Source: a virus
Lineage: Duplodnaviria; Heunggongvirae; Uroviricota; Caudoviricetes
IMG/VR virus record: IMGVR_UViG_3300035492_000080
Span: 1-64,000 of that record
DNA: 64,000 nucleotides
Direction: 5' to 3' (one strand)
Shown: positions 37,607 through 61,602 of the stretch, one piece after another
Position numbering within the stretch: position 1 is the stretch's first letter
How the letters are laid out: each line of letters starts with the position of its first letter
Notes under the pieces: generated by a model
Told to the model about the DNA's origin: nothing
Databases searched by the model: none
What the model saw: the letters and a program-made list of their open reading frames with translations, nothing else
Made by a program: the position numbers and the translations under genes

Positions 37607-37758
37607 AATTCACTATTTATCTCCTAATATAAATATATTTATTTAAATATTTAAAATATATAAATTAATAATTATAAATATTTAATATATTTATAATTAT
37701 ACCATTAGTATTACAGATTGTCAATACCCTTGGTGAAAATTTTTATGAGATTTTTCTG

Positions 37759-38417: not shown

Positions 38418-39179
38418 ATGCCGAGAAAAAATGGGAACGTTACACGCGGTGAGCGTCGTCAAAGTCAACGCAATAAGCAACAAAAAACAGAACGTGTTCT
38501 TGACCCTCGTTTCAATGAAGAGCGTGAGAAGCTTATTAAGCCAGTCCTAGCTAAAAATGCTCATCAGAAAGAGTATCTGCGCAGTATCATGAGTAATATG
38601 ATCACTGTGGGCAGAGGGAGTGCTGGCACGGGCAAAACTTGGTGTGCTGCGGCGATGGCTTCTAATATGTACCTTAAGGGGGAAATTGATAAAATTGTTG
38701 TAATGCGACCACTTGTCGGGATGGGCAAATCTTCTGGTTTTTGGCCGGGGACGATTCAAGATAAACTTGGACCATACCTTGCTCCAATTCTCTCTACAAT
38801 CCGTGAACGTATTGGCGATGCTAGGTATGAGAACGATTTCAATAAAAATATCGTAATTCAGCCAATGGAAGCTGTTCGTGGTATGAATTTTAATGAAAAA
38901 ACATTCATCATTATTGATGAAGCTCAGAACTGCACACCTGAAGAAATTAGAAGTCTTACCACCCGTCTGGCCGAGGGGAGTAGGGCAGTATTTTGTGGTG
39001 ACAGTAAGCAAAAAGATTTGCAAGGGATGTCTGGGATAGATTATCTTTGTAATCTTATCAGCAAGCACAGTATCGAGAATTGTGGATTTGTTGACTTTAC
39101 ACCGGAAGATATCGTGCGATCAGGCTTGACACGAGTTTTTGTTGAGTTGTATGATGCCGAAGGACCATGCCCTAAATAA
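38418..39179 (+). CDS. phoH: PhoH-like ATPase
   Basis: 253 aa; Walker A GSAGTGKTW, Walker B IIIDEAQN, typical phage PhoH length. Confidence 0.8.
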   Translation: MPRKNGNVTRGERRQSQRNKQQKTERVLDPRFNEEREKLIKPVLAKNAHQKEYLRSIMSNMITVGRGSAGTGKTWCAAAMASNMYLKGEIDKIVVMRPLVGMGKSSGFWPGTIQDKLGPYLAPILSTIRERIGDARYENDFNKNIVIQPMEAVRGMNFNEKTFIIIDEAQNCTPEEIRSLTTRLAEGSRAVFCGDSKQKDLQGMSGIDYLCNLISKHSIENCGFVDFTPEDIVRSGLTRVFVELYDAEGPCPK

Positions 39180-39191
39180 GGAGGAAATTAT

Positions 39192-39869
39192 TTGAACACT
39201 GAAAATCGCCGCAACCCGCAACGAGTGCCAATGAATTTTAAGCCAACGGCACTTGTTAAAACATATCAAAGTAATGTTATTGACATTTACCTTGATGATG
39301 AAATTACCAGCCCTTCAGATTATCGTGAAGTTTACCATGCACTGTCTAATGCTGGTCCTCAAGACTTGGTGAAAATTCATATCAATTCACCCGGTGGGCG
39401 ACTTGACTCTGGTATTCAGATTATCAACCATATTCGTCATTGTGAGGCACTTGTTGTCGGTGTTTTGCATATGGACTGTGCATCTATGGCTTCTGGAATT
39501 TTCTTGGCATGTCATGATTGGGAGATCAATAAGTTTTCAACTATGATGGTTCATAGTTGTTCCTATGGTGCTGGCGGTAAACAGAGTGATATTAAGAACC
39601 GTGTAAACTTCATGACAGATTTTAATGAAAAATTTATTCGTGAGATTTATACTGGATTCTTGACTGAGGAAGAGATTGACCTTATCCTTAAGGGCGACGA
39701 TATTTATTTTTCTGCTGAAGAGATTGACAAGAAACTTGAACAGTTTAAACAATATCGTGAAAGCCTTAAGAACAGTGAGAGTACATCTGAGCTTAAGGAA
39801 GAGGAAGAGATTGTAATTAAGGCTAAGCCTGCGCGTAAGCGTACCTCTAAGTCGGAGAAGCAGGCGTGA
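39192..39869 (+). CDS. ClpP-family serine protease homolog (stand-alone, early region)
   Basis: 225 aa; INSPGG and CASMAS (ClpP active-site Ser region) motifs; TTG start after AAGGAGG; Lys/Glu-rich tail. Confidence 0.55.
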   Translation: MNTENRRNPQRVPMNFKPTALVKTYQSNVIDIYLDDEITSPSDYREVYHALSNAGPQDLVKIHINSPGGRLDSGIQIINHIRHCEALVVGVLHMDCASMASGIFLACHDWEINKFSTMMVHSCSYGAGGKQSDIKNRVNFMTDFNEKFIREIYTGFLTEEEIDLILKGDDIYFSAEEIDKKLEQFKQYRESLKNSESTSELKEEEEIVIKAKPARKRTSKSEKQA

Positions 39870-39941
39870 GCCTGCTTTAAAAGCTCATGGAGGATTTGAT
39901 CTATAGTATTCAAGAATACGTCAATCAGGAGGAATCTTTTT

Positions 39942-40226
39942 GTGGACGTGAAATTGAAAAAACAAATCTCTTTCTGCAAGTTCCTTCGAATCAGGAACAG
40001 TACCGAGAGCATCCCTGTTCGATCTTTCCGGCTAATGAGGAATAAGTATGAGCCGGAACTTGCCCTAGAGGCATATAAGTATGGAGACTTCGTTTATGCG
40101 ATATTTCGTTGCAAGAAGCAAAATGGTAATCGTCTCGCTACTTATTGTGTTAGGTATTGGGTCGGAGATTATGGGAGACTTGACCTATTTTCATACACTG
40201 TTGACACCTCATTTCGAGGTTTCTGA
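39942..40226 (+). CDS. hypothetical protein
   Basis: 94 aa ORF. Confidence 0.3.
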   Translation: MDVKLKKQISFCKFLRIRNSTESIPVRSFRLMRNKYEPELALEAYKYGDFVYAIFRCKKQNGNRLATYCVRYWVGDYGRLDLFSYTVDTSFRGF

Positions 40227-40504
40227 TGGTGGTTGATTGGATTAGAGATAAATATTCCTACAACTTAGTTATAGATACTATCGTACCTCGTTATAAACAC
40301 TCGGATGGTATTTTCAGGGTTGAGACAACAAGTGTAGTTATAAGTAACTTCCTCAAATCTCTTGGTTATGATGGGATTACCCCTGACGGAGCTAGAAAGT
40401 CTTTCTTAATAGAGGGAGATATTCAGTTTTTATTTGATTTTTTGAAAGTTCTGGGTATTGAAAAGAAATATGTATGGAGGACCACGGTTTATGTCAAAGA
40501 TTAA
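40226..40504 (+). CDS. hypothetical protein
   Basis: 92 aa, ATGA overlap. Confidence 0.35.
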   Translation: MVVDWIRDKYSYNLVIDTIVPRYKHSDGIFRVETTSVVISNFLKSLGYDGITPDGARKSFLIEGDIQFLFDFLKVLGIEKKYVWRTTVYVKD

Positions 40505-40754
40505 AATTACTATTCTTGAAGTTAAAGATATGAATCAGGAAGAGTTTACGCCTCCCTCAAAGTGGTATTTTATCAACGCACTCGGTCAGCATATCTATAT
40601 TCACTGTCGTGATCGCACTAATGCCGAGCAATATATCACCGAGACTTATGGTAAGGGTTTCTATAAACTTCGCACATCTTCTCTAGAGAAGAATAAGGGG
40701 GAAGTTACTTGTAAAGGCACTGCTACCCGGAAAGGACAGAAATCTTATAATTGA
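40458..40754 (+). CDS. hypothetical protein
   Basis: 98 aa; start may be internal (MSKIKITILE at about 40491). Confidence 0.3.
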   Translation: MKRNMYGGPRFMSKIKITILEVKDMNQEEFTPPSKWYFINALGQHIYIHCRDRTNAEQYITETYGKGFYKLRTSSLEKNKGEVTCKGTATRKGQKSYN

Positions 40755-40766
40755 TAGGAGAGGGAG

Positions 40767-41252
40767 TTGTTTGATTTTAATAAAATTGTCATAGATAGAG
40801 CCTCACCTTCAGGTATTGCTTGGAGAAACGGTAAGCCCGCAGGTACGCTACGAAAGGATGGGTATTGGAGGGTTGGAAAGGAAAAGGTATATGTCCACAA
40901 AATTGTATGGGAACTTTACTATGGGACCGTGCCTGAAGGTTTTGAGGTTGACCATATTGACGGAAACCCTTCTAACAACTTAATTGAAAATTTACAAATA
41001 AAAACACACGCTGAAAATATGTGCAACACTAAGAAAAGGAAGCACAATAAAACAGGAGTTAATGGGGTGAGTAAGCTTGTTGTGGGAGACTATTCATACT
41101 ACACAGCTCAATGGCATGAGGGAGGTAAACTTATTGTGAAAAGGTTTTCAATTAATAAACTTGGCGACAATTTGGCACTAGCTCTTGCTGTTCAGGCTCG
41201 TAAATCTGCTGAGCAGCTATTAAATAAGTTTACTAACAGGCATGGGACTTAA
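40767..41252 (+). CDS. HNH homing endonuclease (AP2-domain type)
   Basis: 161 aa; VDHIDGNPSNNLIENLQIKTHAENM. Confidence 0.7.
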   Translation: MFDFNKIVIDRASPSGIAWRNGKPAGTLRKDGYWRVGKEKVYVHKIVWELYYGTVPEGFEVDHIDGNPSNNLIENLQIKTHAENMCNTKKRKHNKTGVNGVSKLVVGDYSYYTAQWHEGGKLIVKRFSINKLGDNLALALAVQARKSAEQLLNKFTNRHGT

Positions 41253-41560
41253 TGGATATCAGGGACATTATTATAAATGGGCAAACCTTGAAAAGTGCCC
41301 TTAATGACTTAACAACATATGTGTTAAAAACATTAGGAAGTCCTAAGTACACAACCCAAACCTCGCACACGATATTCTTCTCATACCCGAAGTATGATAT
41401 ATGTTTCTATCTTTCCACATCTACAAATAACTTAAACTTCGCCATAGATTCATATGATAGGCGCGTTAGGAACTACCTTGAGTCAGCTGGGACAGTTTAT
41501 GATTTAAACCAGTTCAAAGATATAGTGGAGATACTTATGGAGGGTGAGAATGCAGATTAA
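41252..41560 (+). CDS. hypothetical protein
   Basis: 102 aa. Confidence 0.35.
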   Translation: MDIRDIIINGQTLKSALNDLTTYVLKTLGSPKYTTQTSHTIFFSYPKYDICFYLSTSTNNLNFAIDSYDRRVRNYLESAGTVYDLNQFKDIVEILMEGENAD

Positions 41561-42227
41561 AGATTTAGATTTGAGAGGATTTAAAGGAAGAATCTTCTTC
41601 ACTACTGATTTACATGGCCACTATAACCTCCTTCATGAAAAATTGAAGGAGGTGGCATTTAATGGGGATAAGGATATTCTTCTGGTTGGTGGGGATTTGT
41701 GTGACAGAGGCCCAGACAGTCAATATGTTTTAGATTACTTGAATGAACCTTGGTTCATATCAATTATGGGTAATCATGAGAAGATGTTGATTGATGCTTA
41801 TGAGAACCCATCAGATAGGAATTGCTATGAGATGCTATTTTTGAATGGTGGTGAGTGGTTTTACAACATTCCTAAAACTAAGCAAAAGGCCATTTATGAC
41901 AGTTTCAAGGAACTCCCATTAGCAATCAAGGTTATAACTGATTCGGAAACAGTTGGAATCGTCCATGCCCAATGTCCCTACGATGATTGGGAAGAATTTT
42001 CCAAAATGACCAAAGCAGAAATTGAGTGGGATGGTGCTGCAACTTCTCAATGGGCTAGGAGTAACTACTTATACCGGAAAGACATCACTATTGGTGGTGT
42101 AGATCGTTTACTTGTTGGACACTCTCCGACAAGTACAGGAGAGGTTGAGGTAATTGGTAATACTTGGTATTGTGACCTTGGGTCTTTCTTCAGAGATAAG
42201 CTCTGTTTATTGGAGATTGGAATTTGA
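41544..42227 (+). CDS. Ser/Thr protein phosphatase (lambda PPase-like metallophosphoesterase)
   Basis: 227 aa; TTDLHG, GDLCDRGPDS, GNHE motifs. Confidence 0.75.
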   Translation: MRMQIKDLDLRGFKGRIFFTTDLHGHYNLLHEKLKEVAFNGDKDILLVGGDLCDRGPDSQYVLDYLNEPWFISIMGNHEKMLIDAYENPSDRNCYEMLFLNGGEWFYNIPKTKQKAIYDSFKELPLAIKVITDSETVGIVHAQCPYDDWEEFSKMTKAEIEWDGAATSQWARSNYLYRKDITIGGVDRLLVGHSPTSTGEVEVIGNTWYCDLGSFFRDKLCLLEIGI

Positions 42228-42637
42228 AAGATAAATATATTGAAGCTCTACTAGATATGGCTGAAAGGTTTGGGCAGACAAGTGAAGCAGTTCGTTTAAA
42301 AGTTGGATGCCTTATCTACAAAAATGACTCAATTATTTCAATGGGTGTTAATGGTCAGCCAGAAGGTTGGCCATCCGAGTTCTGTGAAGGTGAAGACGGG
42401 AAAACTTTGCCAACAGTGAGGCATGCTGAAGATGCTGCTTTGCAGAAGCTTTGCAGAAGCACAGAAACTTCTGTAGGGTCAGTGATGTTTATAAGTCATG
42501 CACCTTGCCTCCCCTGCGCAATAAAGATTGCAACCGCAAAAATTTCTGCGGTATACTACCGCTATGATTATCGACTTAGTGATGGGATTGACTATCTTAG
42601 GTCGAAAGGAATTTTGGTTGAGAAATGTTCGGATTAG
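42224..42637 (+). CDS. dCMP / cytidine deaminase family zinc enzyme
   Basis: 137 aa; HAEDAAL and PCLPCA zinc-binding motifs. Confidence 0.7.
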   Translation: MKDKYIEALLDMAERFGQTSEAVRLKVGCLIYKNDSIISMGVNGQPEGWPSEFCEGEDGKTLPTVRHAEDAALQKLCRSTETSVGSVMFISHAPCLPCAIKIATAKISAVYYRYDYRLSDGIDYLRSKGILVEKCSD

Positions 42638-42882
42638 ACGAGCCAACAATTCTTGAGTGGTGGGAAGAGTGTCAGAAGAGGCTCCCACCAAGAACCAATC
42701 AAATTGGCAGTAAGCTTTTCATGTATATGAAAATCACTGTAATAGAAATTCCTAACAAGGCCTGCTATAATTATCTTGCAGCCTGCGGGTACAGGTGTAA
42801 TCGGAATGGTGAGATGTTACTTTCTGTAAAAGAGTACGATGAGTATATTTCATTTCAAAAAATGATGCTGGAGGGAAAATAG
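42625..42882 (+). CDS. hypothetical protein
   Basis: 85 aa. Confidence 0.3.
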   Translation: MFGLDEPTILEWWEECQKRLPPRTNQIGSKLFMYMKITVIEIPNKACYNYLAACGYRCNRNGEMLLSVKEYDEYISFQKMMLEGK

Positions 42883-43688
42883 TGATTAAATATGAGCTGA
42901 GATGTTCCACATATTTCGTGGATACGATGAAGTTCCCCGGTGGGGAGGTGGGTGTTCGCTTGCCTTCTCCAAAGCATATGAGCGGCGACATCAAGCTTAC
43001 TGCCCACTTGAAAAATAGTGACAATGTGATGCAGTTGCTGATGACTGTGGATGCTATTCGTCGTAATCATCCCGGCTCGAAGATTCATGCAACAATCCCT
43101 TACATCCCATACGCACGGCAAGACCGCGTATGTAATCAGGGTGAGAGTTTAAGTATTGCTGTGATGGCCTCGCTCATTAATTCATGCAAATTTGACACTG
43201 TGACCACGCTTGATCCACACTCAGACGTTGTAGGTGCTCTCATCAACAATCTTGAAATCATCGAACAACATGATATTTTCCAGTGTGTGAAAACATCTTG
43301 GGAAAACACTCACATTGTTGCCCCTGATGGTGGCGCATACAAGAAATGTATGAAGTTTGCACAACGTGTAGGAGCTGCTGGGGTAATTGTCTGTAACAAG
43401 GTGAGAAACCTCAAGACCGGACAGATTGAGAGCCTCACTTGTAGTGAAAATGTTGGAGGAAAAGAGCTTTTTGTTCTAGATGACATTTGTGATGGTGGTA
43501 GAACCTTCGTCGAACTTGCTCAGGAGCTAAAAGGGGCAAAGAGTATTTCTCTGGCGGTGACACACGGAATTTTCTCAAAAGGTGTGGAAGTTGTTGCAAA
43601 GCATTTTGACACTGTGTACACTACCAACTCATTCCACGGCAATGAGCTGCCAGAAGATTGGGCAGATGTTGTGCAGATTAATTATTAA
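42882..43688 (+). CDS. prs: ribose-phosphate pyrophosphokinase (PRPP synthetase)
   Basis: 268 aa; PRPP-binding loop VLDDICDGGRTF, PYARQDR motif. Confidence 0.8.
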   Translation: MIKYELRCSTYFVDTMKFPGGEVGVRLPSPKHMSGDIKLTAHLKNSDNVMQLLMTVDAIRRNHPGSKIHATIPYIPYARQDRVCNQGESLSIAVMASLINSCKFDTVTTLDPHSDVVGALINNLEIIEQHDIFQCVKTSWENTHIVAPDGGAYKKCMKFAQRVGAAGVIVCNKVRNLKTGQIESLTCSENVGGKELFVLDDICDGGRTFVELAQELKGAKSISLAVTHGIFSKGVEVVAKHFDTVYTTNSFHGNELPEDWADVVQINY

Positions 43689-43697
43689 GGAGGGATA

Positions 43698-45245
43698 ATG
43701 AAACTACGGGCCGCAACCGTCACCGACGGATATAAAGTAGGTCACGGCAACATGTATGCCGATGGCACTGAAAAAGTATATAGCAACCTCACCCCACGGA
43801 GTGATAAAATTTATCTTCGAAATGCCACAAAATTTTATGATGGAAAATTGGTTTTTGTAGGTGCTCAGGGTGCTGTTCAAGAAATTCAAGAAATGTGGCA
43901 TCAAACATTTTTTGATATTCCAGCTATCGTGGCTGTCAGTGAATATGCCCGCCGTATGGCCACCTATCTTGGTGGAGAGGTGAAAGCAACTGAACAGCTG
44001 AATGAACTTCACAAGCTCGGTTATCTGCCGCTGGAGATTAAGGCTCTGCCGGAAGGTAGTAAGGTGAAGATGGGCATTCCTGTGATGACAATTACCAACA
44101 CTGATAGTCGCTTCTTCTGGCTTGTCAACTATCTGGAAACTGTTATCAGTAATCTGGTGTGGAAACCATCCACTAACGCAACGATTGCTGCTGAATACAA
44201 AGCAATTTGTGAGCATTACGGCAAACTGACTGGAATGGACGAATTCTCCATTTCTATTCAATGCCATGACTTCTCCATGCGTGGTATGTCTGGTCCTGAA
44301 GATGCTGCCCGGAGTGGCTTTGCACACCTGATAAGTTTTATTGGAACCGACACTCTACCGGCAATGGATTATGCAGAAATGTATTATGATGCTGATCCAG
44401 AAAGTTTGATTGCTATTTCTGTCCCGGCAACGGAACATGCTGTAGCTACAAATAATATCCTATATCTGGAACAGGGTGTACAGGTTATTCCAACAGGTTG
44501 GGATGTTCGCAAGGTAGCTGAGTTGCGCTTCATGCAAGACCTTATCACACGCAAATATCCAACCGGCATTGTGAGCTATGTTGCAGATAGCTTTGACTTT
44601 TGGTCGGTAGTTACTGAGATTGTGCCTTCTCTGAAAGAAGTTATCCTTTCTCGTGAAGCGAATGGTGCAGCTCCCGGTAAGTTGGTGATTCGCCCTGACT
44701 CCGGTGATCCTGTGAAAGTTATTTGTGGAGATGTTGGTGCTCCGATTGGTTCCCCTGAATTTAAAGGTGCTGTTGAGTGCCTGTGGGAAACCTTTGGCGG
44801 AACTGAAACCTCCACTGGCTATAAGCTTCTGGACAGTCACATTGGCCTGATCTACGGTGACAGTATCACCACACAGCGTTGCGAAGAGATTCTTCGCCGT
44901 TTGCAAGAAAAAGGCTTTGCTTCTGGTAATGTGGTGTTTGGTGTTGGAAGTTATACTTATCAGTGTAACACCCGTGACACTTTCGGTTTTGCTGTTAAGG
45001 CAACATACTCTGAAGTTAATGGTGTTCCTGTGAACATTTTTAAAGACCCGAAAACAGATAGCAAGAAGAAGAGTGCAAAAGGGCTTCTGTGTGTTGAACG
45101 TGATGAAGATGGTGAATTCAAGCTGTATGATGAAGTTAGTAAAACAGCAGAACTTGAAGGTTATCTGTACACCATTTTCAAAGATGGTGAGTGGGTGAAG
45201 CGCACAAATCTTGAAGAAATTCGGAGCCGTCTGGTATGGGAGTGA
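43698..45245 (+). CDS. nadV: nicotinamide phosphoribosyltransferase (NAMPT / NadV)
   Basis: 515 aa; length and conserved blocks of NAPRTase family, directly after prs. Confidence 0.8.
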   Translation: MKLRAATVTDGYKVGHGNMYADGTEKVYSNLTPRSDKIYLRNATKFYDGKLVFVGAQGAVQEIQEMWHQTFFDIPAIVAVSEYARRMATYLGGEVKATEQLNELHKLGYLPLEIKALPEGSKVKMGIPVMTITNTDSRFFWLVNYLETVISNLVWKPSTNATIAAEYKAICEHYGKLTGMDEFSISIQCHDFSMRGMSGPEDAARSGFAHLISFIGTDTLPAMDYAEMYYDADPESLIAISVPATEHAVATNNILYLEQGVQVIPTGWDVRKVAELRFMQDLITRKYPTGIVSYVADSFDFWSVVTEIVPSLKEVILSREANGAAPGKLVIRPDSGDPVKVICGDVGAPIGSPEFKGAVECLWETFGGTETSTGYKLLDSHIGLIYGDSITTQRCEEILRRLQEKGFASGNVVFGVGSYTYQCNTRDTFGFAVKATYSEVNGVPVNIFKDPKTDSKKKSAKGLLCVERDEDGEFKLYDEVSKTAELEGYLYTIFKDGEWVKRTNLEEIRSRLVWE

Positions 45246-45697
45246 TGAGATATCGTCAAGGCGACCTTATCCAAGCTCTGAAGAATGGGGAGGTGGGTGT
45301 AATAGCTCACCAAGCCAACTGCATGAATACAATGGGAAGTGGGGTTGCAAAAGCTATCCGTGAAAACTTCCCTGAAGCATATGCGGCAGATTGCGAGACA
45401 GAGCGGGGAGATGCCGATAAACTTGGCAACTATACTTTTGCAGAGAATGAGCATGGGTTGATTTTTAATCTATACGGGCAGTATAATTATGGTCGAGATG
45501 GTGCTCACTATACTCAACTGGCCTCTCTTGAAGAAGCTCTTGAGAATATGGCAATATACTTGACGGATATTGGCTATAAAGGTAAAGTGGGAATCCCGAA
45601 GCTCGGTTGCGGGTTGGGAGGTGCTGATTGGAACCAAGTAGCTCGTGTAGTTTCTCGTGCTCTTGATAACTTTGAAGTGATTGTTTATTCAATTTAA
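45236..45697 (+). CDS. macro-domain protein (ADP-ribose binding / hydrolase family)
   Basis: 153 aa; IAHQANCMNTMGSGVAKAI and KLGCGLGG glycine-rich motifs; overlaps nadV stop. Confidence 0.6.
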   Translation: MGVMRYRQGDLIQALKNGEVGVIAHQANCMNTMGSGVAKAIRENFPEAYAADCETERGDADKLGNYTFAENEHGLIFNLYGQYNYGRDGAHYTQLASLEEALENMAIYLTDIGYKGKVGIPKLGCGLGGADWNQVARVVSRALDNFEVIVYSI

Positions 45698-45708
45698 GGA
45701 GGAATATA

Positions 45709-45941
45709 TGTTTTTCTTTTGGCGTACTAAAAAAGAAAGCCCGGAAGCACTAGTAGAAGATGCTCTGAGTGGATTCAATGCAGCAGTGGAGAAGATGAAC
45801 ACTGCTACTGCTCAAATCGAGAGTGCAATTGTTAACCACGAGGTGAATATTTCTGAAATTCAGAAGAAAATCACTGAAGCACAAGAAGCTAAGAGTCGTA
45901 TCACTCGGATCAGTGAGAAGTTTAAGGAGCTGCTAGCTTAA
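45709..45941 (+). CDS. hypothetical coiled-coil protein
   Basis: About 77 aa from ATG at 45709 after AGGAGGAAT RBS. Confidence 0.3.
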
Positions 45942-46501
45942 TGGCAGTTTTCTTTACTTCGGATAATCACCACAGGCATAAGAATATCATCGAATATAGT
46001 GATCGACCTTGGAAGTTCGAAGACCAAACCGCCGAGCTAATTGCTCGGTGGAACAGTCGAGTTGGTAAAAATGATGATGTTTACCACCTTGGAGATTTTG
46101 TGTTTGCCGGTGCAAAAAATTTCAACCAAGTGGTTGAAATAATTAAATCACTTAATGGTAGAATCCATTTTATTAAAGGAAACCATTGTGACTGGAAACT
46201 TTGGGAGATGATCAAGAAAGAGAAACTCCAAAATGTTGTGTGGATTCGGGATTATGCTGAAATCAGTGTAAATAAGCAGAAGATTATTCTGTCGCACTAT
46301 CCATTTGCAATCTGGAACCAGAGTCATCGAGGGAGTTGGCATTTGCATGGCCACTGCCACGGAAGTTATCAGGGCGATGGTAAGGTGTTGGATGTTGGTA
46401 TCGACAACCATCCTGACTTCCAAGTGTTTTCTTTTGAGGAAATTGAGCACTTTATGTCACAGCGTGAATTTGTACAAAACTCACACCACAGGGGAGATTG
46501 A
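45941..46501 (+). CDS. calcineurin-like metallophosphoesterase (putative polynucleotide 3'-phosphatase)
   Basis: 186 aa; DNHH..GDFV..GNHC..HGH motifs; co-located with RNA ligase and kinase. Confidence 0.65.
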   Translation: MAVFFTSDNHHRHKNIIEYSDRPWKFEDQTAELIARWNSRVGKNDDVYHLGDFVFAGAKNFNQVVEIIKSLNGRIHFIKGNHCDWKLWEMIKKEKLQNVVWIRDYAEISVNKQKIILSHYPFAIWNQSHRGSWHLHGHCHGSYQGDGKVLDVGIDNHPDFQVFSFEEIEHFMSQREFVQNSHHRGD

Positions 46502-46502
46502 G

Positions 46503-47387
46503 ATGTTTGCGGATTTGATTGAAAAGAAGCTGGTAAAAGAGAAGAAGTACCCAAATGGATTGTCCATCTACAAATATAACAACCGGGTTTTCTATGACAA
46601 CCTTTGGCATCTGGACAATCGAATCCTCGAAGCTCGTGGAATGGTTTTGAATTCTAATGGTGAGAAGGTTATTTGGCCATTCACTAAAGTGTTTAATCGT
46701 TTCGAAAACGGTACAGATTGTGACCCAAATAGTCTAGTTGAAATGGTTGAGAAGGTTAACGGGTTTATGGCGGCGGCACGGATGTGGAATGGTGAGCTTC
46801 TAGTAAGCAGCACTGGAACTCTTGATTCCGACTATGTAAAGCTTGCACGAAAAGTCATCATGGGATGTCAACCCCTTAATGCGGACTTCTGGGATACCTA
46901 TTCTGGACTGACGCTGATGTTTGAAATCTGTGATGAGAGCGACCCACACATTGTTGAAGAGAAGCCGGGGGCATACTTGATTGGTGGCCGTGATATGACA
47001 ACTGGTGATATGCTTCAAGAAGCACAACTTGATGTGATTGCAGACGAGGGAGGTTTCCTGCGTCCACAACACTCTCTTATTTTCTTCGATCAACTCACGG
47101 AGGTTGTAAAAACCTACAAGAAAGAAGGGTTTATGGTGAGGGATGGGTATAGCGGGAAGTATTTGATGAAAATCAAGTCACCTCACTATCTCATCAAGAA
47201 GTTTCTTATGAGAATGGGTGATGCAAAGACAAAACTCATGTTTACAGACACCAATGAACTTTTTAGACAACTGGATGAAGAGTTTTACTGTGTAATTGAG
47301 TGGATTATCACTAACTTCACGGAAGAGCAGTGGACTTCGATGAATGATCAGGTGAGACGAGCAAAGTTGGAGGAATATTTTGGATAA
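46503..47387 (+). CDS. rnlA: RNA ligase 1 (RnlA-like, tRNA repair)
   Basis: 294 aa from internal ATG; YKYNNRVFYDNLWHLDNRILEARGMVL aligns with T4 RnlA N-terminal nucleotidyltransferase region; stop of upstream gene abuts. Confidence 0.65.
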   Translation: MFADLIEKKLVKEKKYPNGLSIYKYNNRVFYDNLWHLDNRILEARGMVLNSNGEKVIWPFTKVFNRFENGTDCDPNSLVEMVEKVNGFMAAARMWNGELLVSSTGTLDSDYVKLARKVIMGCQPLNADFWDTYSGLTLMFEICDESDPHIVEEKPGAYLIGGRDMTTGDMLQEAQLDVIADEGGFLRPQHSLIFFDQLTEVVKTYKKEGFMVRDGYSGKYLMKIKSPHYLIKKFLMRMGDAKTKLMFTDTNELFRQLDEEFYCVIEWIITNFTEEQWTSMNDQVRRAKLEEYFG

Positions 47388-47784
47388 GAGAACTCTTTAT
47401 ATCATTCGTGGACTGCCGGGGGCTGGTAAGTCCACGTTTGCAACAACTCTTAGGAACTCACTTAAGTGCCTGGTGTGGGAAGCTGATCAATACCACACGG
47501 TTAATGGGGAATACCAGTGGAAGCCTGAGAATGTTCGTGCAGCCCATATGTGGTGTCAGGATGGTGTCCGTTCCTGTATGTCCGCAGGACACACAAACGT
47601 GATTGTTTCAAACACATCTACTACAGAGAAAGAGATGAAACCGTATCTTGATATGGCTGGAATTTATGGGTATGATGTTGTCTCATTGGTTGTGGAAAAC
47701 CGTCATGGAAACCCTTCTATTCATGGCGTTCCAGAAGAAACCATGAAAAATATGGAAAACCGTTTTTCTATTAAGTTGAGGTGA
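47380..47784 (+). CDS. P-loop polynucleotide 5'-kinase (Pnk kinase domain only)
   Basis: 134 aa; Walker A GLPGAGKST; overlaps rnlA stop. Confidence 0.55.
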   Translation: MDKRTLYIIRGLPGAGKSTFATTLRNSLKCLVWEADQYHTVNGEYQWKPENVRAAHMWCQDGVRSCMSAGHTNVIVSNTSTTEKEMKPYLDMAGIYGYDVVSLVVENRHGNPSIHGVPEETMKNMENRFSIKLR

Positions 47785-48071
47785 GTGTGGCAGATAAACC
47801 AGATTTAAAAGTATTGTCTTTCACGGACTACCAGAAAAAGGCTGAAAGAAAAAAGAAAGTTGAAGACTTTATTATTAAGTTGAAATCTTTATTCCACATC
47901 AAGAAGGGGTTCGAAAAATATCGAGTAGTGCAGTGGGGAACATATAGTGATACTGGATCAACCTATGTTATTCTTCAAAACTTGAAAAGTGGAAAAATCA
48001 AAGAAAAGGTAGTATCTCGTGTACCTGTTGACAAACAGGCTGTAGAACTTTTTGTACGAAATCTTTGGTAG
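47781..48071 (+). CDS. hypothetical protein
   Basis: 96 aa. Confidence 0.35.
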   Translation: MSVADKPDLKVLSFTDYQKKAERKKKVEDFIIKLKSLFHIKKGFEKYRVVQWGTYSDTGSTYVILQNLKSGKIKEKVVSRVPVDKQAVELFVRNLW

Positions 48072-48079
48072 GAGGATTG

Positions 48080-49135
48080 ATGGAAAAGAAGACGTTGTAT
48101 GGTTTGGACAAGGGTGGTGAATTTAAAGTGTGGGAGATTTCCACCTCTGGTGACATTCTGACGATTGTTCACGGGAAAGAGGGCGGGAAGATGCAAACCA
48201 AGGATGAAACCATTAAAGGTAAGAATATTGGTCGGGCCAATGAAACATCTCCGGCTGAGCAAGCTGAGTTGGAGGCTATGAGCCGTTGGCGTAAGCAGGT
48301 TGATAAGGGCTATCGTGAAAGTAAAGAAGAGCTTAAAGAGCTTCCTATTCTTCCAATGCTAGCACATGATTACTTGAAACAAGGTCATCGTATTGAATAC
48401 CCGTGCTATGGATCGCCTAAGCTAGATGGTGTTCGTTGCCTTGCAATCCGTCATGAGGATCGGGTAGAATTGAAATCTCGTGGAGGTAAGGAATATTTCG
48501 TTGAGCACATTCAACGAGATTTGCTTGGCTCTATGCTACCGGGAGAGATTTTTGATGGGGAGCTTTACATTCACGGTAAATACCTCGAAGAGATTGTTTC
48601 TGCTGTAAAGAAACCAAATGCAGATACCCCGTCTCTGAAGTTTATTATCTTCGACATTGTAAACGATAAAACGTTTGATGGACGGATTCAAGACCTTGCA
48701 GTTGTTCAACGTTTTGGGAAGTCTGTTGAAGAACTTAAATACGTCGTTCTTTACAGCGAGCAGGAGATGAAACAGAAGCACAAGGAATATGTTGCTGCTG
48801 GGTATGAAGGTATTATGCTTCGCAATGGTGACGGTTTGTATGAATCTGGTAAGCGCTCGGCAGATTTGCAGAAATACAAAGAGTTCTTTGATGAAGAGTT
48901 TGTTATCATTGATGTTCGGGAAGATGCTAATGGCAATGCCGTACTTGAGGTGTATGACAACACTGCTGGATGTAATTTCAGTGTTTGCTACGGCAACCAT
49001 GAAGAGCGTAAACATCAGCTTAAAGAAAAACATCTTTACATTGGAAAGAAAATCACTGTAAAATATCAGACTCGGTACAAGGATAGTAAACTTCCGCAAT
49101 TCCCTACAGGTGTAGCTATTAGGGATTACGAATGA
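48080..49135 (+). CDS. ATP-dependent DNA ligase (T7-type, short)
   Basis: About 351 aa from ATG after GGAGG; motif I KLDGVR, OB-fold C-terminus. Confidence 0.75.
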   Translation: MEKKTLYGLDKGGEFKVWEISTSGDILTIVHGKEGGKMQTKDETIKGKNIGRANETSPAEQAELEAMSRWRKQVDKGYRESKEELKELPILPMLAHDYLKQGHRIEYPCYGSPKLDGVRCLAIRHEDRVELKSRGGKEYFVEHIQRDLLGSMLPGEIFDGELYIHGKYLEEIVSAVKKPNADTPSLKFIIFDIVNDKTFDGRIQDLAVVQRFGKSVEELKYVVLYSEQEMKQKHKEYVAAGYEGIMLRNGDGLYESGKRSADLQKYKEFFDEEFVIIDVREDANGNAVLEVYDNTAGCNFSVCYGNHEERKHQLKEKHLYIGKKITVKYQTRYKDSKLPQFPTGVAIRDYE

Positions 49136-51992: not shown

Positions 51993-52503
51993 AACAATCA
52001 ATGAACAGACAGGTGAGATATTATTTGAATGGGATGAGGAGGTGTCTTACAAATCTCCAAAACCAACACCTCCGCTGGACGGTGTGTATGATGAAGACAC
52101 ACTCAAGAAATACTGCTCAGACCCATCTAGGAAATCTAGGGGAGATATTGGCTATCTAGTGGACTTCCTCTCAACAGGAGGAATTACTCAGGTGGATATG
52201 CTTGTACTAAAAACTCTCTGTTTAGATGTACAGATTCACAACTTTGCTGTATCTTCTCTTCCAAGAATAGCTTCAAACATCTCTTACACAGAGAGGGCTG
52301 TCAGAGGAAGTATCAAACACCTGCAATCGGTAAACCTCCTAAAAGTGGTGAATACTCGCTTCTACGAAGATGGAACTCCCTACACACTCTACTGGATACA
52401 CCCTAAAATTGCTTTCAAGGGTAGTTATTTTAAGTGGCGGATTTCTTGTGCAGAGAATGACATCACCTCCCTGTACACCCCTCTAAACACCTACGAAATA
52501 TGA
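51982..52503 (+). CDS. hypothetical protein (last gene of plus-strand block)
   Basis: 173 aa. Confidence 0.35.
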   Translation: MIIETINEQTGEILFEWDEEVSYKSPKPTPPLDGVYDEDTLKKYCSDPSRKSRGDIGYLVDFLSTGGITQVDMLVLKTLCLDVQIHNFAVSSLPRIASNISYTERAVRGSIKHLQSVNLLKVVNTRFYEDGTPYTLYWIHPKIAFKGSYFKWRISCAENDITSLYTPLNTYEI

Positions 52504-52505
52504 AT

Positions 52506-52523
52506 GTGGAAAAAAATTTCCAC
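52506..52523. repeat. perfect palindrome GTGGAAAAAAATTTCCAC
   Basis: Seen directly after stop of 51982..52503. Confidence 0.6.
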
Positions 52524-52736
52524 ATTCTCCCCTGTAGCCCTCTAAAATCAGGGGGGTCTAGTTGGCACATATATAATAACACCTGTTTCCCGCTCTTCAT
52601 ATTGCATACCCAATATATTGCAATTCCCCTCATATTGCCCTTCCTAATTTCTCTATTTTTTTTTTTCTAAAAATTCAAATAGGGACATTCCATATTAGCT
52701 GATCTTCCATATTGGAAATATCCAATCCTCCTTACA

Positions 52737-56962: not shown

Positions 56963-57163
56963 TCAGAATGATTCCTCGCCTTGGATAAATGCCCCGTCCG
57001 AACGTTTAACCAGCAGCTCACCATTGGCCAGCTCATACAATCCGACACGACAGGGACCGGCAAAGGTGCGAATTGCCACAGGCTCACCATAAAGCCAGTT
57101 TTCATCGCTGGCCGTGGTCACGGCGATTTTGATTTTGTCACTGAAAAAAGGAATAGTTTTCAT
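56963..57163 (-). CDS. hypothetical protein
   Basis: 66 aa. Confidence 0.3.
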   Translation of the reverse strand: MKTIPFFSDKIKIAVTTASDENWLYGEPVAIRTFAGPCRVGLYELANGELLVKRSDGAFIQGEESF

Positions 57164-57360
57164 TATTTCATCCTCAATTGATTCTTGGCTGTGCTAACAG
57201 CATCGGATTCGTCTTGTGTGTGATAATCGGCCTCTGGCACTGGACCTATGCCAGCATAAGAGAATCGGACACGGAATTCTTGCCACACGCTGTCGCGGTA
57301 AATAATCGCCCGGTCGCCTTTGGCGTTTTCAAATGTTAGATGCTTGCGAAGTGCCATCAC
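57163..57360 (-). CDS. hypothetical protein
   Basis: 65 aa. Confidence 0.3.
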   Translation of the reverse strand: MMALRKHLTFENAKGDRAIIYRDSVWQEFRVRFSYAGIGPVPEADYHTQDESDAVSTAKNQLRMK

Positions 57361-57538
57361 TTATTACCCCTGCGGATTAGTTCGAGTGTTTCTTCCTCGC
57401 GTTTCCTCACAATGCATTCGGCGTGGTTTGGGAAAAGTGCCGTATAGTCTGAAGGCTTTCCGCCAAACCTTCTAGCGCGCTCGGCTGCGCTAGGTTTCAA
57501 GACTACCCTCAGCCCGCAAATATTGCATTTTGCCATGT
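57359..57538 (-). CDS. small zinc-ribbon protein (59 aa, below ORF-track cutoff)
   Basis: MAKCNICGL...NHAECIVRK; ATGA overlap with downstream gene. Confidence 0.3.
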
Positions 57539-57541
57539 TAG

Positions 57542-57712
57542 ATAACCTCCAAAACTGTTAAAGCAAAAACAGTTGCGAGCAGGAAAAAGCCAGCGGCGAT
57601 GGCGAAAGCCAGAAGCATATATCCTGTGCCAGTGAAAGCAAAAAATAACATCACAAAAGCCAGAACAAGAAACATCACAGCGAAAACACCATTTAACAGC
57701 TTCATCCGCTAC
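57542..57712 (-). CDS. small hydrophobic membrane peptide (56 aa)
   Basis: MKLLNGVFAVMFLVLAFVMLFFAFTGTGYMLLAFAIAAGFFLLATVFALTVLEVI; two TM helices. Confidence 0.3.
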
Positions 57713-58325
57713 CCTCTGAAAATTTCCTTTCGACAGGCGCCATTCTATAGAAAGTTTTGAGCATGGATAATTGAATGTTTCTATTAAACCAATAGGAATA
57801 ACCTATCGCCTCGGAGCATGACAAATGGAAGGAAACGCGCGTGCGAATAGCACAGCACCGCTTGCCCGTCAATACACTGGACATCCACACAGTATGCTCT
57901 AAAACCTTCTATTTTGCGTTTTAAGAGGGTTTTGTCGTGACCCGCTACCCTTGCCTCAGATTCTTCCGATCTCACTTTTAAGAATGTTTCTCATCTAATT
58001 AGGAAGTGTGAATTGATAGGCTGTCACTATGGTGGAGCGACCTGGGCGAACGAGTGACGATGAAATAAAAGCTTTGCATTCTGTGAAAGCATTTCCGTAT
58101 AATATGCACATGGCGGGAAACGCAGGCATAAGGGAGGCCGAGCACCGGAGACAAACACTGGGGGAGCCTGCGATCTATGTTGGCATAGAATTTGCTTTAA
58201 CAAAAACTATGCCAACTATTTTTATTGACAGCTGCACAGTTTTTATGGGAAGCTGATACAAATTTTCGGCACCCGGTCACGGGAGGCCCGCCTGCGCCCT
58301 AAAGGAAAATAAAGTTAGCCTTCTA

Positions 58326-58345
58326 ACTATTAGTGAGCTAATAGT
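58326..58345. promoter_or_regulatory. perfect inverted repeat ACTATTAG-tgag-CTAATAGT (operator-like)
   Basis: Read directly; lies in intergenic region upstream of the minus-strand small-gene block. Confidence 0.5.
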
Positions 58346-58381
58346 GCGCCAGCTATCGACAGCTAACTAATTATTGCCTAG

Positions 58382-58407
58382 CTATTAATTAGCCTCCTAT
58401 TAATTAG
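58382..58407. promoter_or_regulatory. two copies of near-palindromic CTATTAATTAG (plus related CTAACTAATTA upstream)
   Basis: gCTATTAATTAGcctcCTATTAATTAGttgg. Confidence 0.5.
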
Positions 58408-58527
58408 TTGGCTAATTTTTGGTGACGATCCCAGCAAATTCCTTCCTGTTCAATACAAAAAGAGAGAAGACACTTTCATCCTCTCTCTTATCAAAAGCGC
58501 CACGTTCATAATTTCTCTCGATCAAAA

Positions 58528-58610
58528 CCTATCGAGTATTAATTTCCAGCGCGAGAAACCTATCGAGTATTAATTTCTCTCGACCAAAATCTATCGAGTA
58601 TTAAAATTTC
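58528..58610 (+). repeat. three direct repeats CCTATCGAGTATTAAT(T)TTC at 31-32 bp spacing, each flanked by a CTCGA..TCGAG inverted half-site
   Basis: Copies at 58528-58546, 58559-58577 and 58591-58610; tctCTCGATcaaaacctATCGAGtat palindromic arrangement. Confidence 0.6.
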
Positions 58611-58953: not shown

Positions 58954-59019
58954 TTTTCATGGGCCTATTAAAATATCCAAGTAAAAATATCCTGCCAAAC
59001 AAGTATCCGGCCAAGTATC

Positions 59020-60039: not shown

Positions 60040-60047
60040 TCCACCTC

Positions 60048-60551: not shown

Positions 60552-60555
60552 GGCA

Positions 60556-61092: not shown

Positions 61093-61117
61093 ATGTGTGT
61101 CCCTTGATAACTACTAA

Positions 61118-61591: not shown

Positions 61592-61602
61592 CTACCTGTC
61601 CC

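What the first reader, a model, noticed from the sequence alone, without database searches (positions are those of the whole stretch)
42882..45697. Phage NAD+ salvage operon (PRPP synthetase, Nampt/NadV) translationally coupled to a macro-domain protein
prs (42882..43688) and nadV (43698..45245) are followed by a 153-aa macro-domain ORF that overlaps the nadV stop codon. Nampt plus Prs can rebuild NAD+ from nicotinamide; phages use this to survive NAD+-depleting defences (Thoeris, DSR, some CBASS). Macro domains bind or hydrolyse ADP-ribose derivatives. A macro protein coupled to NAD+ salvage could recycle ADPR products or reverse ADP-ribosylation by host toxins such as DarT. No NMN adenylyltransferase is visible in this window, so the pathway is either incomplete here, completed elsewhere in the genome, or relies on host NadD/NadR. 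The arrangement looks like a counter-defence module rather than simple metabolism.
Basis: partly seen in the sequence, partly recalled or inferred. Interest (0 to 1): 0.7.

Follow-up and report, generated by a model that had tools for sequence, protein, structure and literature searches.

The report
Phage NAD+ rebuilding operon with phosphatase
These three adjacent phage genes are a new example of a recently described pathway (NARP1-AP) that rebuilds NAD+ directly from the fragments left when bacterial defences destroy it, so the finding is real but already explained in the literature.

Summary
The three ORFs exist exactly as described, and profile searches confirm the Prs-like, Nampt-like and macro families. 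The "Prs" matches verified ADP-ribose pyrophosphokinases (Adps) better than any true Prs. It keeps the catalytic Lys and the DDICDG loop, and it lacks the Prs C-terminal module. The "Nampt" scores 421 bits against the solved SPbetaL1 Namat but only 197 bits against true Nampts, and it carries the Namat signature GSYTYQCNTRD. Adps plus Namat (NARP1) convert ADPR, nicotinamide and ATP straight to NAD+, so the "missing" NMN adenylyltransferase is not needed. None was found in about 92% of the ~89 kb genome. The macro protein belongs to the NARP1-associated family (Adpp), shown in January 2026 to dephosphorylate ADPR-1''-phosphate and so let NARP1 overcome RES-domain (aRES) defence. It is 53-57% identical to proteins that paper lists, and its profile matches the assayed enzyme (hhalign E 3e-36) with the essential His conserved. 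This is a new member of a known system in an uncultivated Felix-O1/Pakpunavirus-like myovirus. The stop/start overlap is real but ordinary, since 12 of 21 junctions in this gene block overlap. A second role in removing ADP-ribose from macromolecules is not excluded.

The parts
42882..43688 (+). adps: Prs-like ADP-ribose pyrophosphokinase (ADPR + ATP -> ADPR-PP + AMP), 268 aa, GTG start. GGAGGG Shine-Dalgarno at 42870-42875. The start overlaps the TAG of the upstream 85-aa ORF by 1 nt.
   Evidence: ORF; Pfam/PHROG. Scores 129-133 bits to biochemically verified ICP1 Adps and 114-125 bits to Cody Adps (the Gary Adps was not compared directly), against 72-84 bits to E. coli Prs and 85 bits to the best PDB Prs. 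K173 equals ICP1 K185 and Gary K192. Conserved residues are F18, R79, H113, D149, DDICDG (200-205) and F209. The C-terminal alpha11-alpha12 module is absent.
43698..45245 (+). namat: Nampt-like nicotinamide ADP-ribose transferase (ADPR-PP + nicotinamide -> NAD+ + PPi), 515 aa. AGGAGGG Shine-Dalgarno at 43688-43694.
   Evidence: PDB: 421 bits to 9W5X/9W5W (SPbetaL1 Namat) against ~197 bits to true Nampts. Selectivity-clamp helix motif GSYTYQCNTRD at aa 417-427 against consensus GSX-Phi-X-Phi-X-Phi-TRD. Selectivity loop TPR-SDK with Lys at the third position. Catalytic H247 equals Gary H243. A true Nampt from a NARP2-like context has GSGGGLLQQVNRD and scores only 197 bits.
45236..45697 (+). adpp: stand-alone macro-domain protein, inferred ADPR-1''-phosphate phosphatase (ADPR-1''P -> ADPR + Pi), 153 aa (150 aa if started at ATG 45245).
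   Evidence: Pfam Macro 4e-8 and phrog_335 1e-56. 53-57% identical to NARP1-associated macro proteins listed in Table S1 of Osterman 2026. 31% identity, E 9e-23 to Cody gp176 (near-identical to the assayed Gary Adpp). Family profile against Gary Adpp: hhalign 99.9%, E 3.4e-36, 129.6 bits. H25 equals Gary H24, whose H24A mutation abolishes function. AlphaFold model pLDDT 91.7 with a macro fold; highest query-normalised TM among the top matches, Poa1p 0.83.

Best explanation
The three genes form a NARP1-AP module (NAD+ reconstitution pathway 1 with associated phosphatase). When a bacterial defence cleaves NAD+ into ADP-ribose and nicotinamide, Adps (42882-43688) uses ATP to pyrophosphorylate the free ribose of ADPR, giving ADPR-PP. 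Namat (43698-45245) then replaces the pyrophosphate with nicotinamide, regenerating NAD+ in two steps without NMN and without an NMN adenylyltransferase. When the defence is a RES-domain enzyme (aRES) that phosphorolyses NAD+ to nicotinamide plus ADPR-1''-phosphate, Adps cannot use that product. The macro protein Adpp (45236-45697) removes the 1''-phosphate to give ADPR, which re-opens the pathway. The genes lie in a tightly packed early or middle gene block of an uncultivated ~89 kb myovirus and are probably co-transcribed. What is shown here: ORFs, family membership, conserved catalytic and signature residues, synteny, and absence of NMNAT. What is inferred by homology to assayed enzymes at 31-41% identity: the substrates, the products and the defence phenotype.
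For: Literature: NARP1 chemistry and its phage specificity. NARP1-AP with the macro-domain Adpp, present in 15% of NARP1 phages, assayed for Vibrio phage Gary. Adps: closer to verified Adps than to any Prs. The catalytic Lys, acceptor residues, DDICDG PP-loop and lid Phe are conserved and the C-terminal regulatory module is missing. All NCBIfam Prs equivalog models score far below cutoff. Namat: 421 bits against 197 bits for Namat structure versus Nampt structures. The Namat-specific motif and longer selectivity loop are present, and are identical to Pakpunavirus Namat. Adpp: groups with all NARP1-associated macro proteins at 93-138 bits, against 60-66 bits for SCO6735/BT1257/DarG/TARG1 and 34-36 bits for Poa1p/AdfM. 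The His that was mutated in Gary is conserved. Context: the same Adps, Namat and macro trio with the same neighbours occurs in Pakpunavirus, which Osterman's Table S1 lists as NARP1 plus Macro, and in metagenomic relatives. No NMNAT, Nudix, PnuC/NadR or Tpt1 was found in the 64 kb window or in a further ~18 kb of the 89 kb genome.
Against: No enzyme from this phage or from its closest relatives (Pakpunavirus-type, 42-57% identity) has been assayed. The assayed proteins are 31-41% identical. Some ligand-contacting residues of ICP1 Adps differ (F92->C84, F223->E211, V195->E183, C197->L185, AAS->GRT in the PP loop). Position 7 of the Namat motif is Cys rather than the adenine-stacking aromatic residue. 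By sequence profile the macro family is nearer to SCO6735, DarG and TARG1 than to Poa1p. Homologues occur in about twice as many phage genomes as Adps, including T4-like phages, so feeding NARP1 cannot be the family's only role.
Confidence: 0.8

Rival explanations
1. The macro protein is mainly an ADP-ribosyl hydrolase acting on macromolecules, for example reversing DarT2-type ADP-ribosylation of phage DNA like SCO6735, DarG2 or the phage AdfM, or de-modifying RNA or protein. In that case it sits next to NARP1 only because counter-defence genes cluster, or because the ADPR it releases can also be recycled.
For: The best solved-structure sequence matches are DarG macrodomains, SCO6735, BT1257 and TARG1, and the only NCBIfam hit is antitoxin DarG at 49.5 bits. 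The active site is SCO6735-type: His25, Asn28, and Gln82 at the position of the catalytic Lys. SCO6735 cleaves ADPr-thymidine DNA, and its Gln85 is essential. Stand-alone phage macro proteins that counter DarTG2 exist (AdfM). The family occurs in 2928 phage records against 1576 with an Adps homologue, and in Escherichia phages 1003 against 178. One homologue sits beside a NADAR hydrolase.
Against: The family profile scores 129.6 bits on the assayed ADPR-1''P phosphatase Gary Adpp but only 35.6 bits on AdfM. The DarG/TARG1 catalytic Lys and the TARG1 Asp125 are absent. The DarT-binding C-terminal domain of DarG is absent, since the protein is only 153 aa. The SCO6735 DNA-binding Lys34 and Lys89 correspond to Ser35 and Gly86. 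At 56% identity or more, every homologue examined lies within a few genes of Adps and Namat. In Gary the macro gene is required specifically for the anti-aRES phenotype of the operon.
Confidence: 0.13
2. A genuine PRPP synthetase and a genuine Nampt make NMN from nicotinamide, and the host's NadD/NadR or an unseen phage NMNAT completes NAD+ synthesis. That would be a NARP2-like or salvage-boosting pathway.
For: Pfam, PHROG and NCBIfam names are Prs and Nampt/NAPRTase. TIGR01251 subfamily score of 145 bits exceeds its cutoff of 113. Namat enzymes can make NMN from PRPP in vitro. The window PP-loop DGGRT is nearer to the canonical DTGGT than ICP1's DGAAS.
Against: The Nampt-like protein carries the Namat clamp motif and loop, and scores twice as high on Namat as on any Nampt. 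The Prs-like protein lacks the Prs C-terminal module and is nearer to Adps. 94% of phages with KVP40-type Nampt also encode Nmnat, yet none is found in about 92% of this genome. 97% of Adps-clade proteins sit next to Namat, as is the case here.
Confidence: 0.04
3. The macro protein serves the adjacent RNA-repair genes (phosphoesterase, RNA ligase, kinase). It would clear ADPR-1''-phosphate produced when a 2'-phosphate at a repaired RNA junction is removed by a Tpt1/KptA-type enzyme, as Poa1p does in yeast tRNA splicing.
For: The macro gene is two genes upstream of a phosphoesterase, Rnl1-like ligase and AAA_33 kinase triad. That triad accompanies the NAD genes in several lineages. Poa1p is the closest characterised homologue by HHpred according to Osterman 2026, and has the highest query-normalised TM-score among the top matches here.
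Against: No Tpt1/KptA (PF01885) was found in the window or in the other sequenced parts of the genome. Rnl1-type healing and sealing leaves no 2'-phosphate (established knowledge of the T4 Pnkp/Rnl1 pathway). The macro gene abuts Namat, not the ligase. In Gary and Cody it lies between Adps and Namat.
Confidence: 0.03

Closest known systems
NARP1-AP of Vibrio phage Gary (Adps, Adpp, Namat; Osterman et al., bioRxiv 10.64898/2026.01.28.702374)
   Same: The same three protein families are present. All three residues whose mutation abolished function in Gary are conserved here (Adps K192 = K173, Namat H243 = H247, Adpp H24 = H25). The genes are contiguous on one strand, and no NMNAT is present.
   Different: The gene order is Adps-Namat-Adpp rather than Adps-Adpp-Namat. 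Measured against the near-identical operon of Vibrio phage Cody, identities are only 34% (Adps), 41% (Namat) and 31% (Adpp). The host phage is a Felix-O1/Pakpunavirus-like myovirus, not a T5-like Thalassavirus. Nothing has been assayed here.
Pakpunavirus (PAK_P1, PaP1, C2-10_Ab1) and related Pseudomonas phage NARP1 + Macro loci listed in Table S1 of the same preprint
   Same: The order Adps, Namat, macro is the same. The Namat motif (GSYTYQCNTRD) and loop start (TPRSDKIY) are identical. The macro is 53-57% identical, the phosphoesterase 58%, Namat 56% and Adps 43%. The RNA ligase and AAA_33 kinase are neighbours in both.
   Different: Pakpunaviruses have small ORFs between the three genes and place the RNA-repair genes upstream. 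Here the three genes abut or overlap and the repair genes lie downstream. There is no nucleotide-level similarity. The capsid protein is only ~50% identical, and its nearest relatives are Limnohabitans and Curvibacter phages.
NARP1 of Bacillus phage SPbetaL1, E. coli phage Bas63 and Vibrio phage ICP1 (Osterman 2024; Namat structure 9W5W/9W5X; ICP1 Adps structures)
   Same: A two-enzyme route from ADPR to ADPR-PP to NAD+ is inferred. The Namat selectivity clamp, the Adps catalytic Lys and PP loop, and the loss of the Prs regulatory C-terminus are shared.
   Different: Those operons have no macro gene within the operon. The window Namat has Cys at motif position 7, where SPbetaL1 has Tyr396. The window Adps has Cys84 and Glu211 where ICP1 has Phe92 and Phe223.
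ALC1-like macrodomains: yeast Poa1p, S. coelicolor SCO6735, DarG2, human TARG1, phage AdfM
   Same: The same macro fold (TM 0.77-0.83). The His-x-x-Asn motif and the glycine-rich diphosphate loop are shared. Gln at the catalytic position matches SCO6735.
   Different: It lacks the Lys of TARG1, DarG and AdfM, lacks the DarT-binding domain, and lacks the SCO6735 DNA-binding lysines. It is much more similar to the phage Adpp group than to any of these proteins.

Membership tests
NARP1 (Adps component) | Prs-like protein that falls with Adps rather than Prs | tested here: met
   BLAST/phmmer gives 129-133 bits to ICP1 Adps, 114-125 to Cody Adps, 196 to Pakpunavirus and 303 to pf16, against 72-84 to E. 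coli Prs and 85 to the best PDB Prs. No full phylogeny was built.
NARP1 (Adps component) | Catalytic beta-hairpin Lys (ICP1 K185, Gary K192) and acceptor residues R87, H121, D161, D212, D213, D216 | tested here: met
   The corresponding residues K173, R79, H113, D149, D200, D201 and D204 are all conserved.
NARP1 (Adps component) | Remodelled PP loop (C215-S220) and donor-site residues conserved among Adps | tested here: inconclusive
   DDICDG and lid F209 are conserved. However, A218-A219-S220 becomes G-R-T, and F92->C84, F223->E211, V195->E183, C197->L185. The same variants occur in Pakpunavirus and pf16.
NARP1 (Adps component) | Loss of the Prs C-terminal alpha11-alpha12 module | tested here: met
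   268 aa against 315 aa for E. coli Prs. The alignment ends 23 columns before the Prs C-terminus. This criterion comes from PMC13586617.
NARP1 | adps immediately next to a Namat homologue (97% of the Adps clade) | tested here: met
   9-nt spacer between 43688 and 43698.
NARP1 (Namat component) | [quoted passage not shown] | tested here: inconclusive
   GSYTYQCNTRD matches 10 of 11 positions. Position 3 is Tyr. Position 7 is Cys, not aromatic, and this is identical in Pakpunavirus Ab1 and contig L013. The motif type is clearly Namat rather than Nampt (GSGGGLLQ..).
NARP1 (Namat component) | Selectivity-clamp loop with Arg, Lys or Tyr at the third residue, longer than in Nampt | tested here: met
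   TPR-S-D-K37. The loop is 11 residues longer than in the NARP2-context Nampt of L014.
NARP1 (Namat component) | Closer to a solved Namat than to Nampt, with the catalytic His present | tested here: met
   421 bits (9W5X) against 197 bits (Nampts). H247 equals Gary H243.
NARP1 | Enzymatic conversion of ADPR + ATP + nicotinamide to NAD+, and rescue from NAD+-depleting defences | not testable with these tools
   Requires biochemistry and plaque assays.
NARP1-AP (Adpp component) | Macro-domain gene (PF01661, PF14519 or PF20016) within two genes of NARP1 | tested here: met
   PF01661 4e-8. The gene directly abuts Namat.
NARP1-AP (Adpp component) | Homology to the assayed Gary Adpp with the essential His24 | tested here: met
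   hhalign 99.9%, E 3.4e-36 over 152 columns; 129.6 bits; H25 conserved.
NARP1-AP (Adpp component) | ADPR-1''-phosphate phosphatase activity and an anti-aRES phenotype | not testable with these tools
   Assayed only for Vibrio phage Gary.
NARP2 (Nampt + Nmnat) | Nmnat encoded in the same genome, with a KVP40-type Nampt | tested here: not met
   No CTP_transf_like or Nudix Pfam hit and no HxGH motif was found in the window or in L017/L018, which together cover about 82 of 89 kb. The protein is Namat-type.
NARP3 (PnuC-like + NadR-like) | PnuC transporter and NadR-like enzyme | tested here: not met
   No such Pfam hits on any called gene.
DarG2 / AdfM anti-DarT macrodomains | Catalytic Lys (Taq DarG K80, TARG1 K84) | tested here: not met
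   Gln82 occupies that column in the window protein and in all phage Adpp sequences.
DarG2 / AdfM anti-DarT macrodomains | Sequence grouping with DarG or AdfM, and for DarG a C-terminal DarT-binding domain | tested here: not met
   NCBIfam DarG scores 49.5 bits against a cutoff of 250, covering the macro part only. PhiKZ AdfM scores 35.6 bits against 129.6 for Adpp. The protein is 153 aa.
SCO6735-type DNA/protein ADP-ribosyl hydrolases | His24, Asn27, Gln85 and Gly128 active site plus basic DNA-binding residues K34 and K89 | tested here: inconclusive
   His25, Asn28, Gln82 and the Gly-rich loop are conserved, but K34 and K89 correspond to Ser35 and Gly86. Profile score is 62 bits.

The most novel reading that the evidence does not exclude
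The Adpp-family macro proteins, this one included, may be bifunctional. They would act as ADPR-1''-phosphate phosphatases, and also as SCO6735-type (Gln-dependent) hydrolases that strip ADP-ribose from DNA, RNA or protein modified by host toxins. In both cases the product is free ADPR, which Adps and Namat turn back into NAD+. This would explain why the family occurs in about twice as many phage genomes as Adps, including T4-like phages without NARP1. It would also explain why NARP1-AP travels with an RNA-repair triad as a larger damage-reversal island.
Probability: 0.15. Interest if true: 0.55.

Novelty: new member of a known kind. Interest (0 to 1): 0.25.

Why it matters
The finding shows that annotation as "PRPP synthetase + Nampt" hides a different, NMNAT-independent chemistry. 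It extends the recently described NARP1-AP counter-defence pathway to an uncultivated, probably freshwater, Felix-O1/Pakpunavirus-like phage lineage, in its most compact gene arrangement. It does not reveal a new mechanism. Its practical value is as a correctly re-annotated example, and as a pointer to two open questions. The first is whether Adpp-family macro proteins have further substrates. The second is why an RNA-repair gene triad repeatedly accompanies NARP1.

Tried and rejected
- **Nucleotide search:** Only ~45-70 nt matches inside Nampt-like genes, so there is no close sequenced relative.
- **Promoter and terminator scan of 37-53.5 kb:** Counts equal chance, so no operon boundaries could be defined. 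Only a hairpin at 52502-52527 marks the end of the + block.
- **Lys argument against DNA de-ADP-ribosylation:** I first argued that absence of the TARG1/DarG catalytic Lys rules this activity out. I withdrew the argument after reading that SCO6735 performs this reaction with Gln at that position. The rival was then weighed on other grounds.
- **Flanking small ORFs (42625-42882 and 45681-45941):** No RyR-domain/RyDEP Pfam hit, no similarity between lineages, and no aRad1 homologue anywhere in the window.
- **PDB 9KE8 (362 bits to the Namat-like protein):** Its identity could not be traced in the literature library.
- **Poa1p structure paper:** Not in the library. I recalled the Poa1p and TARG1 sequences from memory and verified each as an exact match to the PDB entries before using them.
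- **Rest of the genome:** The last ~6.9 kb of the 89 kb genome (JGI record 67004-73922) could not be reached, because only window proteins may be looked up. One edge protein was not on record.
- **Full Adps/Prs and Namat/Nampt phylogeny:** Not built, for lack of outgroup sequences.


Full report
**Observation**

- Pfam assigns them to Pribosyltran_N/Pribosyltran, NAPRTase and Macro.
- PHROGs assigns them to "ribose-phosphate pyrophosphokinase" (3e-89), "nicotinamide phosphoribosyl transferase" (1e-196) and phrog_335 "phosphatase" (1e-56).
- Strong Shine-Dalgarno sequences precede the first two genes (GGAGGG at 42870-42875 and AGGAGGG at 43688-43694).
- The macro ORF overlaps the Namat stop codon. 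The overlap is 10 nt from ATG 45236, or 1 nt (TGATG) from ATG 45245. A JGI gene call uses the second start, and it matches homologue N-termini.

The overlap is real but not special. Twelve of the 21 gene junctions in this + strand block overlap, and Adps itself overlaps the upstream 85-aa ORF.

**What the phage is**

There is no nucleotide-level relative in the phage collection. Identical proteins occur on Logan contigs from SRR11791769 and SRR11791770, and on an 89,218-bp JGI metagenome contig. The window wraps around the end of that contig, so the genome is about 89 kb and circularly permuted.

Pfam hits on identical contigs give the gene map:

- Ribonucleotide reductase, lysis genes, tail fibre, baseplate, sheath, tube, capsid, portal and terminase.
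- A + strand block at about 37.8-52.5 kb with PhoH, ClpP, HNH, a NinI-like phosphatase, dCMP deaminase, the three NAD genes, a metallophosphoesterase, an Rnl1-like RNA ligase, an AAA_33 kinase and an ATP-dependent DNA ligase.

The capsid protein is 50-55% identical to those of Limnohabitans phage DC31, Curvibacter phage P26059A and Pseudomonas KIL/PAK_P-type phages. The phage is therefore a distant member of the Felix-O1/Pakpunavirus-like myoviruses.

**The literature changes the reading**

Osterman et al. 2024 showed that phage "Prs + Nampt" operons are NARP1. Adps pyrophosphorylates ADP-ribose to ADPR-PP. Namat joins ADPR-PP to nicotinamide, giving NAD+ directly. 97% of Adps-clade genes sit next to Namat. 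A different pathway, NARP2, uses a true Nampt plus an Nmnat, and 94% of such phages encode the Nmnat.

Osterman et al. 2026 then showed three things:

- RES-domain defence proteins (aRES) break NAD+ into nicotinamide and ADPR-1''-phosphate, which NARP1 cannot use.
- 15% of NARP1 phages carry a macro-domain gene within two genes of the operon.
- The macro protein of Vibrio phage Gary (Adpp) dephosphorylates ADPR-1''-P to ADPR and is required for the operon to defeat aRES. They call this NARP1-AP.

**Is the Prs-like protein an Adps?**

The annotated ICP1 protein reproduces every residue number given in the Adps structure paper, so it is the protein that was solved and assayed. Aligned to it, the window protein shows the following:

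- It keeps F18, R79 (R87), H113 (H121), D149 (D161), the catalytic K173 (K185, which is Gary K192, whose K192A mutation abolishes function), DDICDG (E. coli Prs has DDMIDT) and the lid F209.
- It ends 23 alignment columns before E. coli Prs, so it lacks the alpha11-alpha12 module. The structural paper calls this loss a signature of the family.
- Some donor and adenine contacts differ: F92->C84, F223->E211 and AAS->GRT. The same variants occur in Pakpunavirus and phage pf16.

It scores 129-133 bits on ICP1 Adps and 114-125 on Cody Adps, a close relative of the Gary enzyme. It scores 72-84 bits on E. coli Prs and 85 bits on the best Prs in the PDB. All NCBIfam Prs equivalog models are far below cutoff.

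**Is the Nampt-like protein a Namat?**

- Its best solved relatives are 9W5X and 9W5W (421 bits), which are SPbetaL1 Namat. True Nampts reach about 197 bits.
- It carries GSYTYQCNTRD. The Namat paper gives GSX-Phi-X-Phi-X-Phi-TRD as the Namat-specific clamp motif.
- Its clamp loop starts TPR-S-D-K, with Lys at the third position as described in that paper.
- A true Nampt from a NARP2-like metagenomic context has GSGGGLLQQVNRD and a loop 11 residues shorter, and scores only 197 bits.
- The catalytic His (H247) corresponds to Gary H243.

The one deviation is Cys instead of an aromatic residue at motif position 7. This is identical in Pakpunavirus C2-10_Ab1 and in contig L013.

**Is the macro protein an Adpp?**

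- It is 53-57% identical to the Pakpunavirus and Otagovirus-type macro proteins. These appear by name in Table S1 of Osterman 2026 as NARP1-associated Macro proteins.
- It is 31% identical (E 9e-23) to Cody gp176, which is near-identical to the assayed Gary protein.
- A profile of 60 homologues matches Gary Adpp at hhalign probability 99.9%, E 3.4e-36, over the full length.

On one hmmsearch scale, the profile gives these scores:

| Target | Bits |
|---|---|
| NARP1-associated macros (four types, Gary = 129.6) | 93-138 |
| BT1257, SCO6735, DarG, TARG1 | 59-66 |
| PhiKZ AdfM (anti-DarT2 macro) | 35.6 |
| Poa1p | 34 |

His25 aligns with Gary His24 (H24A abolishes function) and with Poa1p His23. 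The AlphaFold model is confident (pLDDT 91.7) and has a macro fold. The top Foldseek matches are TARG1, DarG and Poa1p (TM 0.77-0.83).

**The main rival: a macromolecular ADP-ribosyl hydrolase**

The catalytic Lys of TARG1 and DarG is Gln82 here and in all phage Adpp sequences, and TARG1 Asp125 is Gly. I first took this as excluding DNA de-ADP-ribosylation. That was wrong. SCO6735 has Gln at the same position, needs it, and efficiently cleaves ADPr-thymidine on DNA.

The window protein shares the SCO6735-type His, Asn, Gln and Gly residues. It lacks the SCO6735 DNA-binding Lys34 and Lys89, which correspond to Ser35 and Gly86.

The family is also found in 2928 phage records against 1576 with an Adps homologue. 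In Escherichia phages the figures are 1003 against 178, and the family includes T4-like Tk.4. Feeding NARP1 therefore cannot be the family's only role.

Against the rival as the main function here:

- The protein clearly groups with Adpp rather than AdfM.
- It abuts Namat.
- Every homologue examined at 56% identity or more lies within a few genes of Adps and Namat.

At about 43% identity the contexts diverge. One homologue sits with NUDIX, a true Nampt and NADAR. Another has no NAD genes nearby.

**NMNAT and other pathways**

No CTP_transf_like, Nudix, PnuC, NadR or Tpt1 Pfam hit appears on any called gene in the window, or on two further stretches of the JGI contig. No HxGH motif appears in six-frame translations. 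Together these cover about 82 of 89 kb. NARP2 and NARP3 are therefore not met, and NARP1 does not need an NMNAT.

**Surroundings**

A metallophosphoesterase lies immediately downstream. It is 58% identical to Pakpunavirus orf24 and 41% identical to Cody gp173, and its PDB relative is aq_1665. An Rnl1-like ligase and a PNK-like kinase follow it. The same set accompanies the NAD genes in Pakpunavirus, in contigs L012 and L013, and partly in Thalassavirus. This looks like a separate RNA-repair module clustered with NARP1-AP. With no Tpt1 present, there is no evident source of ADPR-1''-P from RNA repair.

**Verdict**

This is a new member of a known kind in a new phage lineage. My confidence in NARP1-AP is about 0.8. 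The remainder lies mostly with a macromolecular hydrolase role for the macro protein.

Noticed in passing
window 45941-47784 (+); also L001, L002, L012, L013: An RNA-repair-like triad lies directly downstream of the NAD genes: metallophosphoesterase 45941-46501, Rnl1-like RNA ligase ~46503-47387 and AAA_33/PNK-like kinase 47380-47784. The same genes accompany Adps, Namat and macro in Pakpunavirus, in two metagenomic relatives and partly in Thalassavirus Cody. It is unclear whether this reflects shared ancestry or a functional link.
   Followed up: partly
window 43698-45245, aa 417-427: The Namat clamp motif has Cys at position 7 (GSYTYQCNTRD), where the structural paper describes an adenine-stacking aromatic residue. 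The motif is identical in Pakpunavirus C2-10_Ab1 and contig L013, so a whole subclade deviates.
   Followed up: partly
window 45236-45697 and phage collection: Homologues of this macro protein occur in 2928 phage records against 1576 with an Adps homologue. In Escherichia phages the figures are 1003 against 178. T4-like copies lie beside the vs gene (Tk.4). The family must have a role independent of NARP1.
   Followed up: partly
L014:1759-6471: On a 147-kb phage contig, a 43%-identical macro homologue sits in a block with NUDIX, a true Nampt (with NAMPT_N domain), NADAR and macro. This is a NARP2-like pathway next to two different ADP-ribosyl hydrolase families.
   Followed up: no
window 42625-42882 (+) and 45681-45941 (+): Two small ORFs flank the operon. 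The 85-aa ORF overlaps dCMP deaminase by 13 nt and Adps by 1 nt, and has no Pfam or PHROG match. The 86-aa ORF (77 aa by another gene call) matches phrog_10599 of unknown function. Neither resembles the small ORFs inside the Pakpunavirus operon, aRad1 or RyR-domain proteins.
   Followed up: partly
window 57163-64000 vs JGI contig Ga0376444_000061: The window runs past the end of the 89,218-bp JGI contig and continues at its other end. The genome is therefore circularly permuted or terminally redundant and about 89 kb long. The window holds roughly 72% of it.
   Followed up: partly
window 48065-49135 (+); L018:2394-3470: An ATP-dependent DNA ligase lies two genes after the kinase. A second, Rnl2-type RNA ligase (PF09414) is encoded in the part of the genome outside the window.
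   Followed up: no
window 37696-37724 (-) and 52502-52527: A perfect sigma-70 consensus (TTGACA, 17 nt spacer, TATAAT, with TG) lies on the minus strand in the divergent intergenic region before the + block. An 11-bp-stem hairpin lies exactly at the end of the + block. Overall promoter and terminator counts equal chance.
   Followed up: no
window 38418-42637 (+): The same block also encodes PhoH, a ClpP-family protease, an HNH endonuclease, a NinI-like Ser/Thr phosphatase and a dCMP deaminase upstream of the NAD genes.
   Followed up: no
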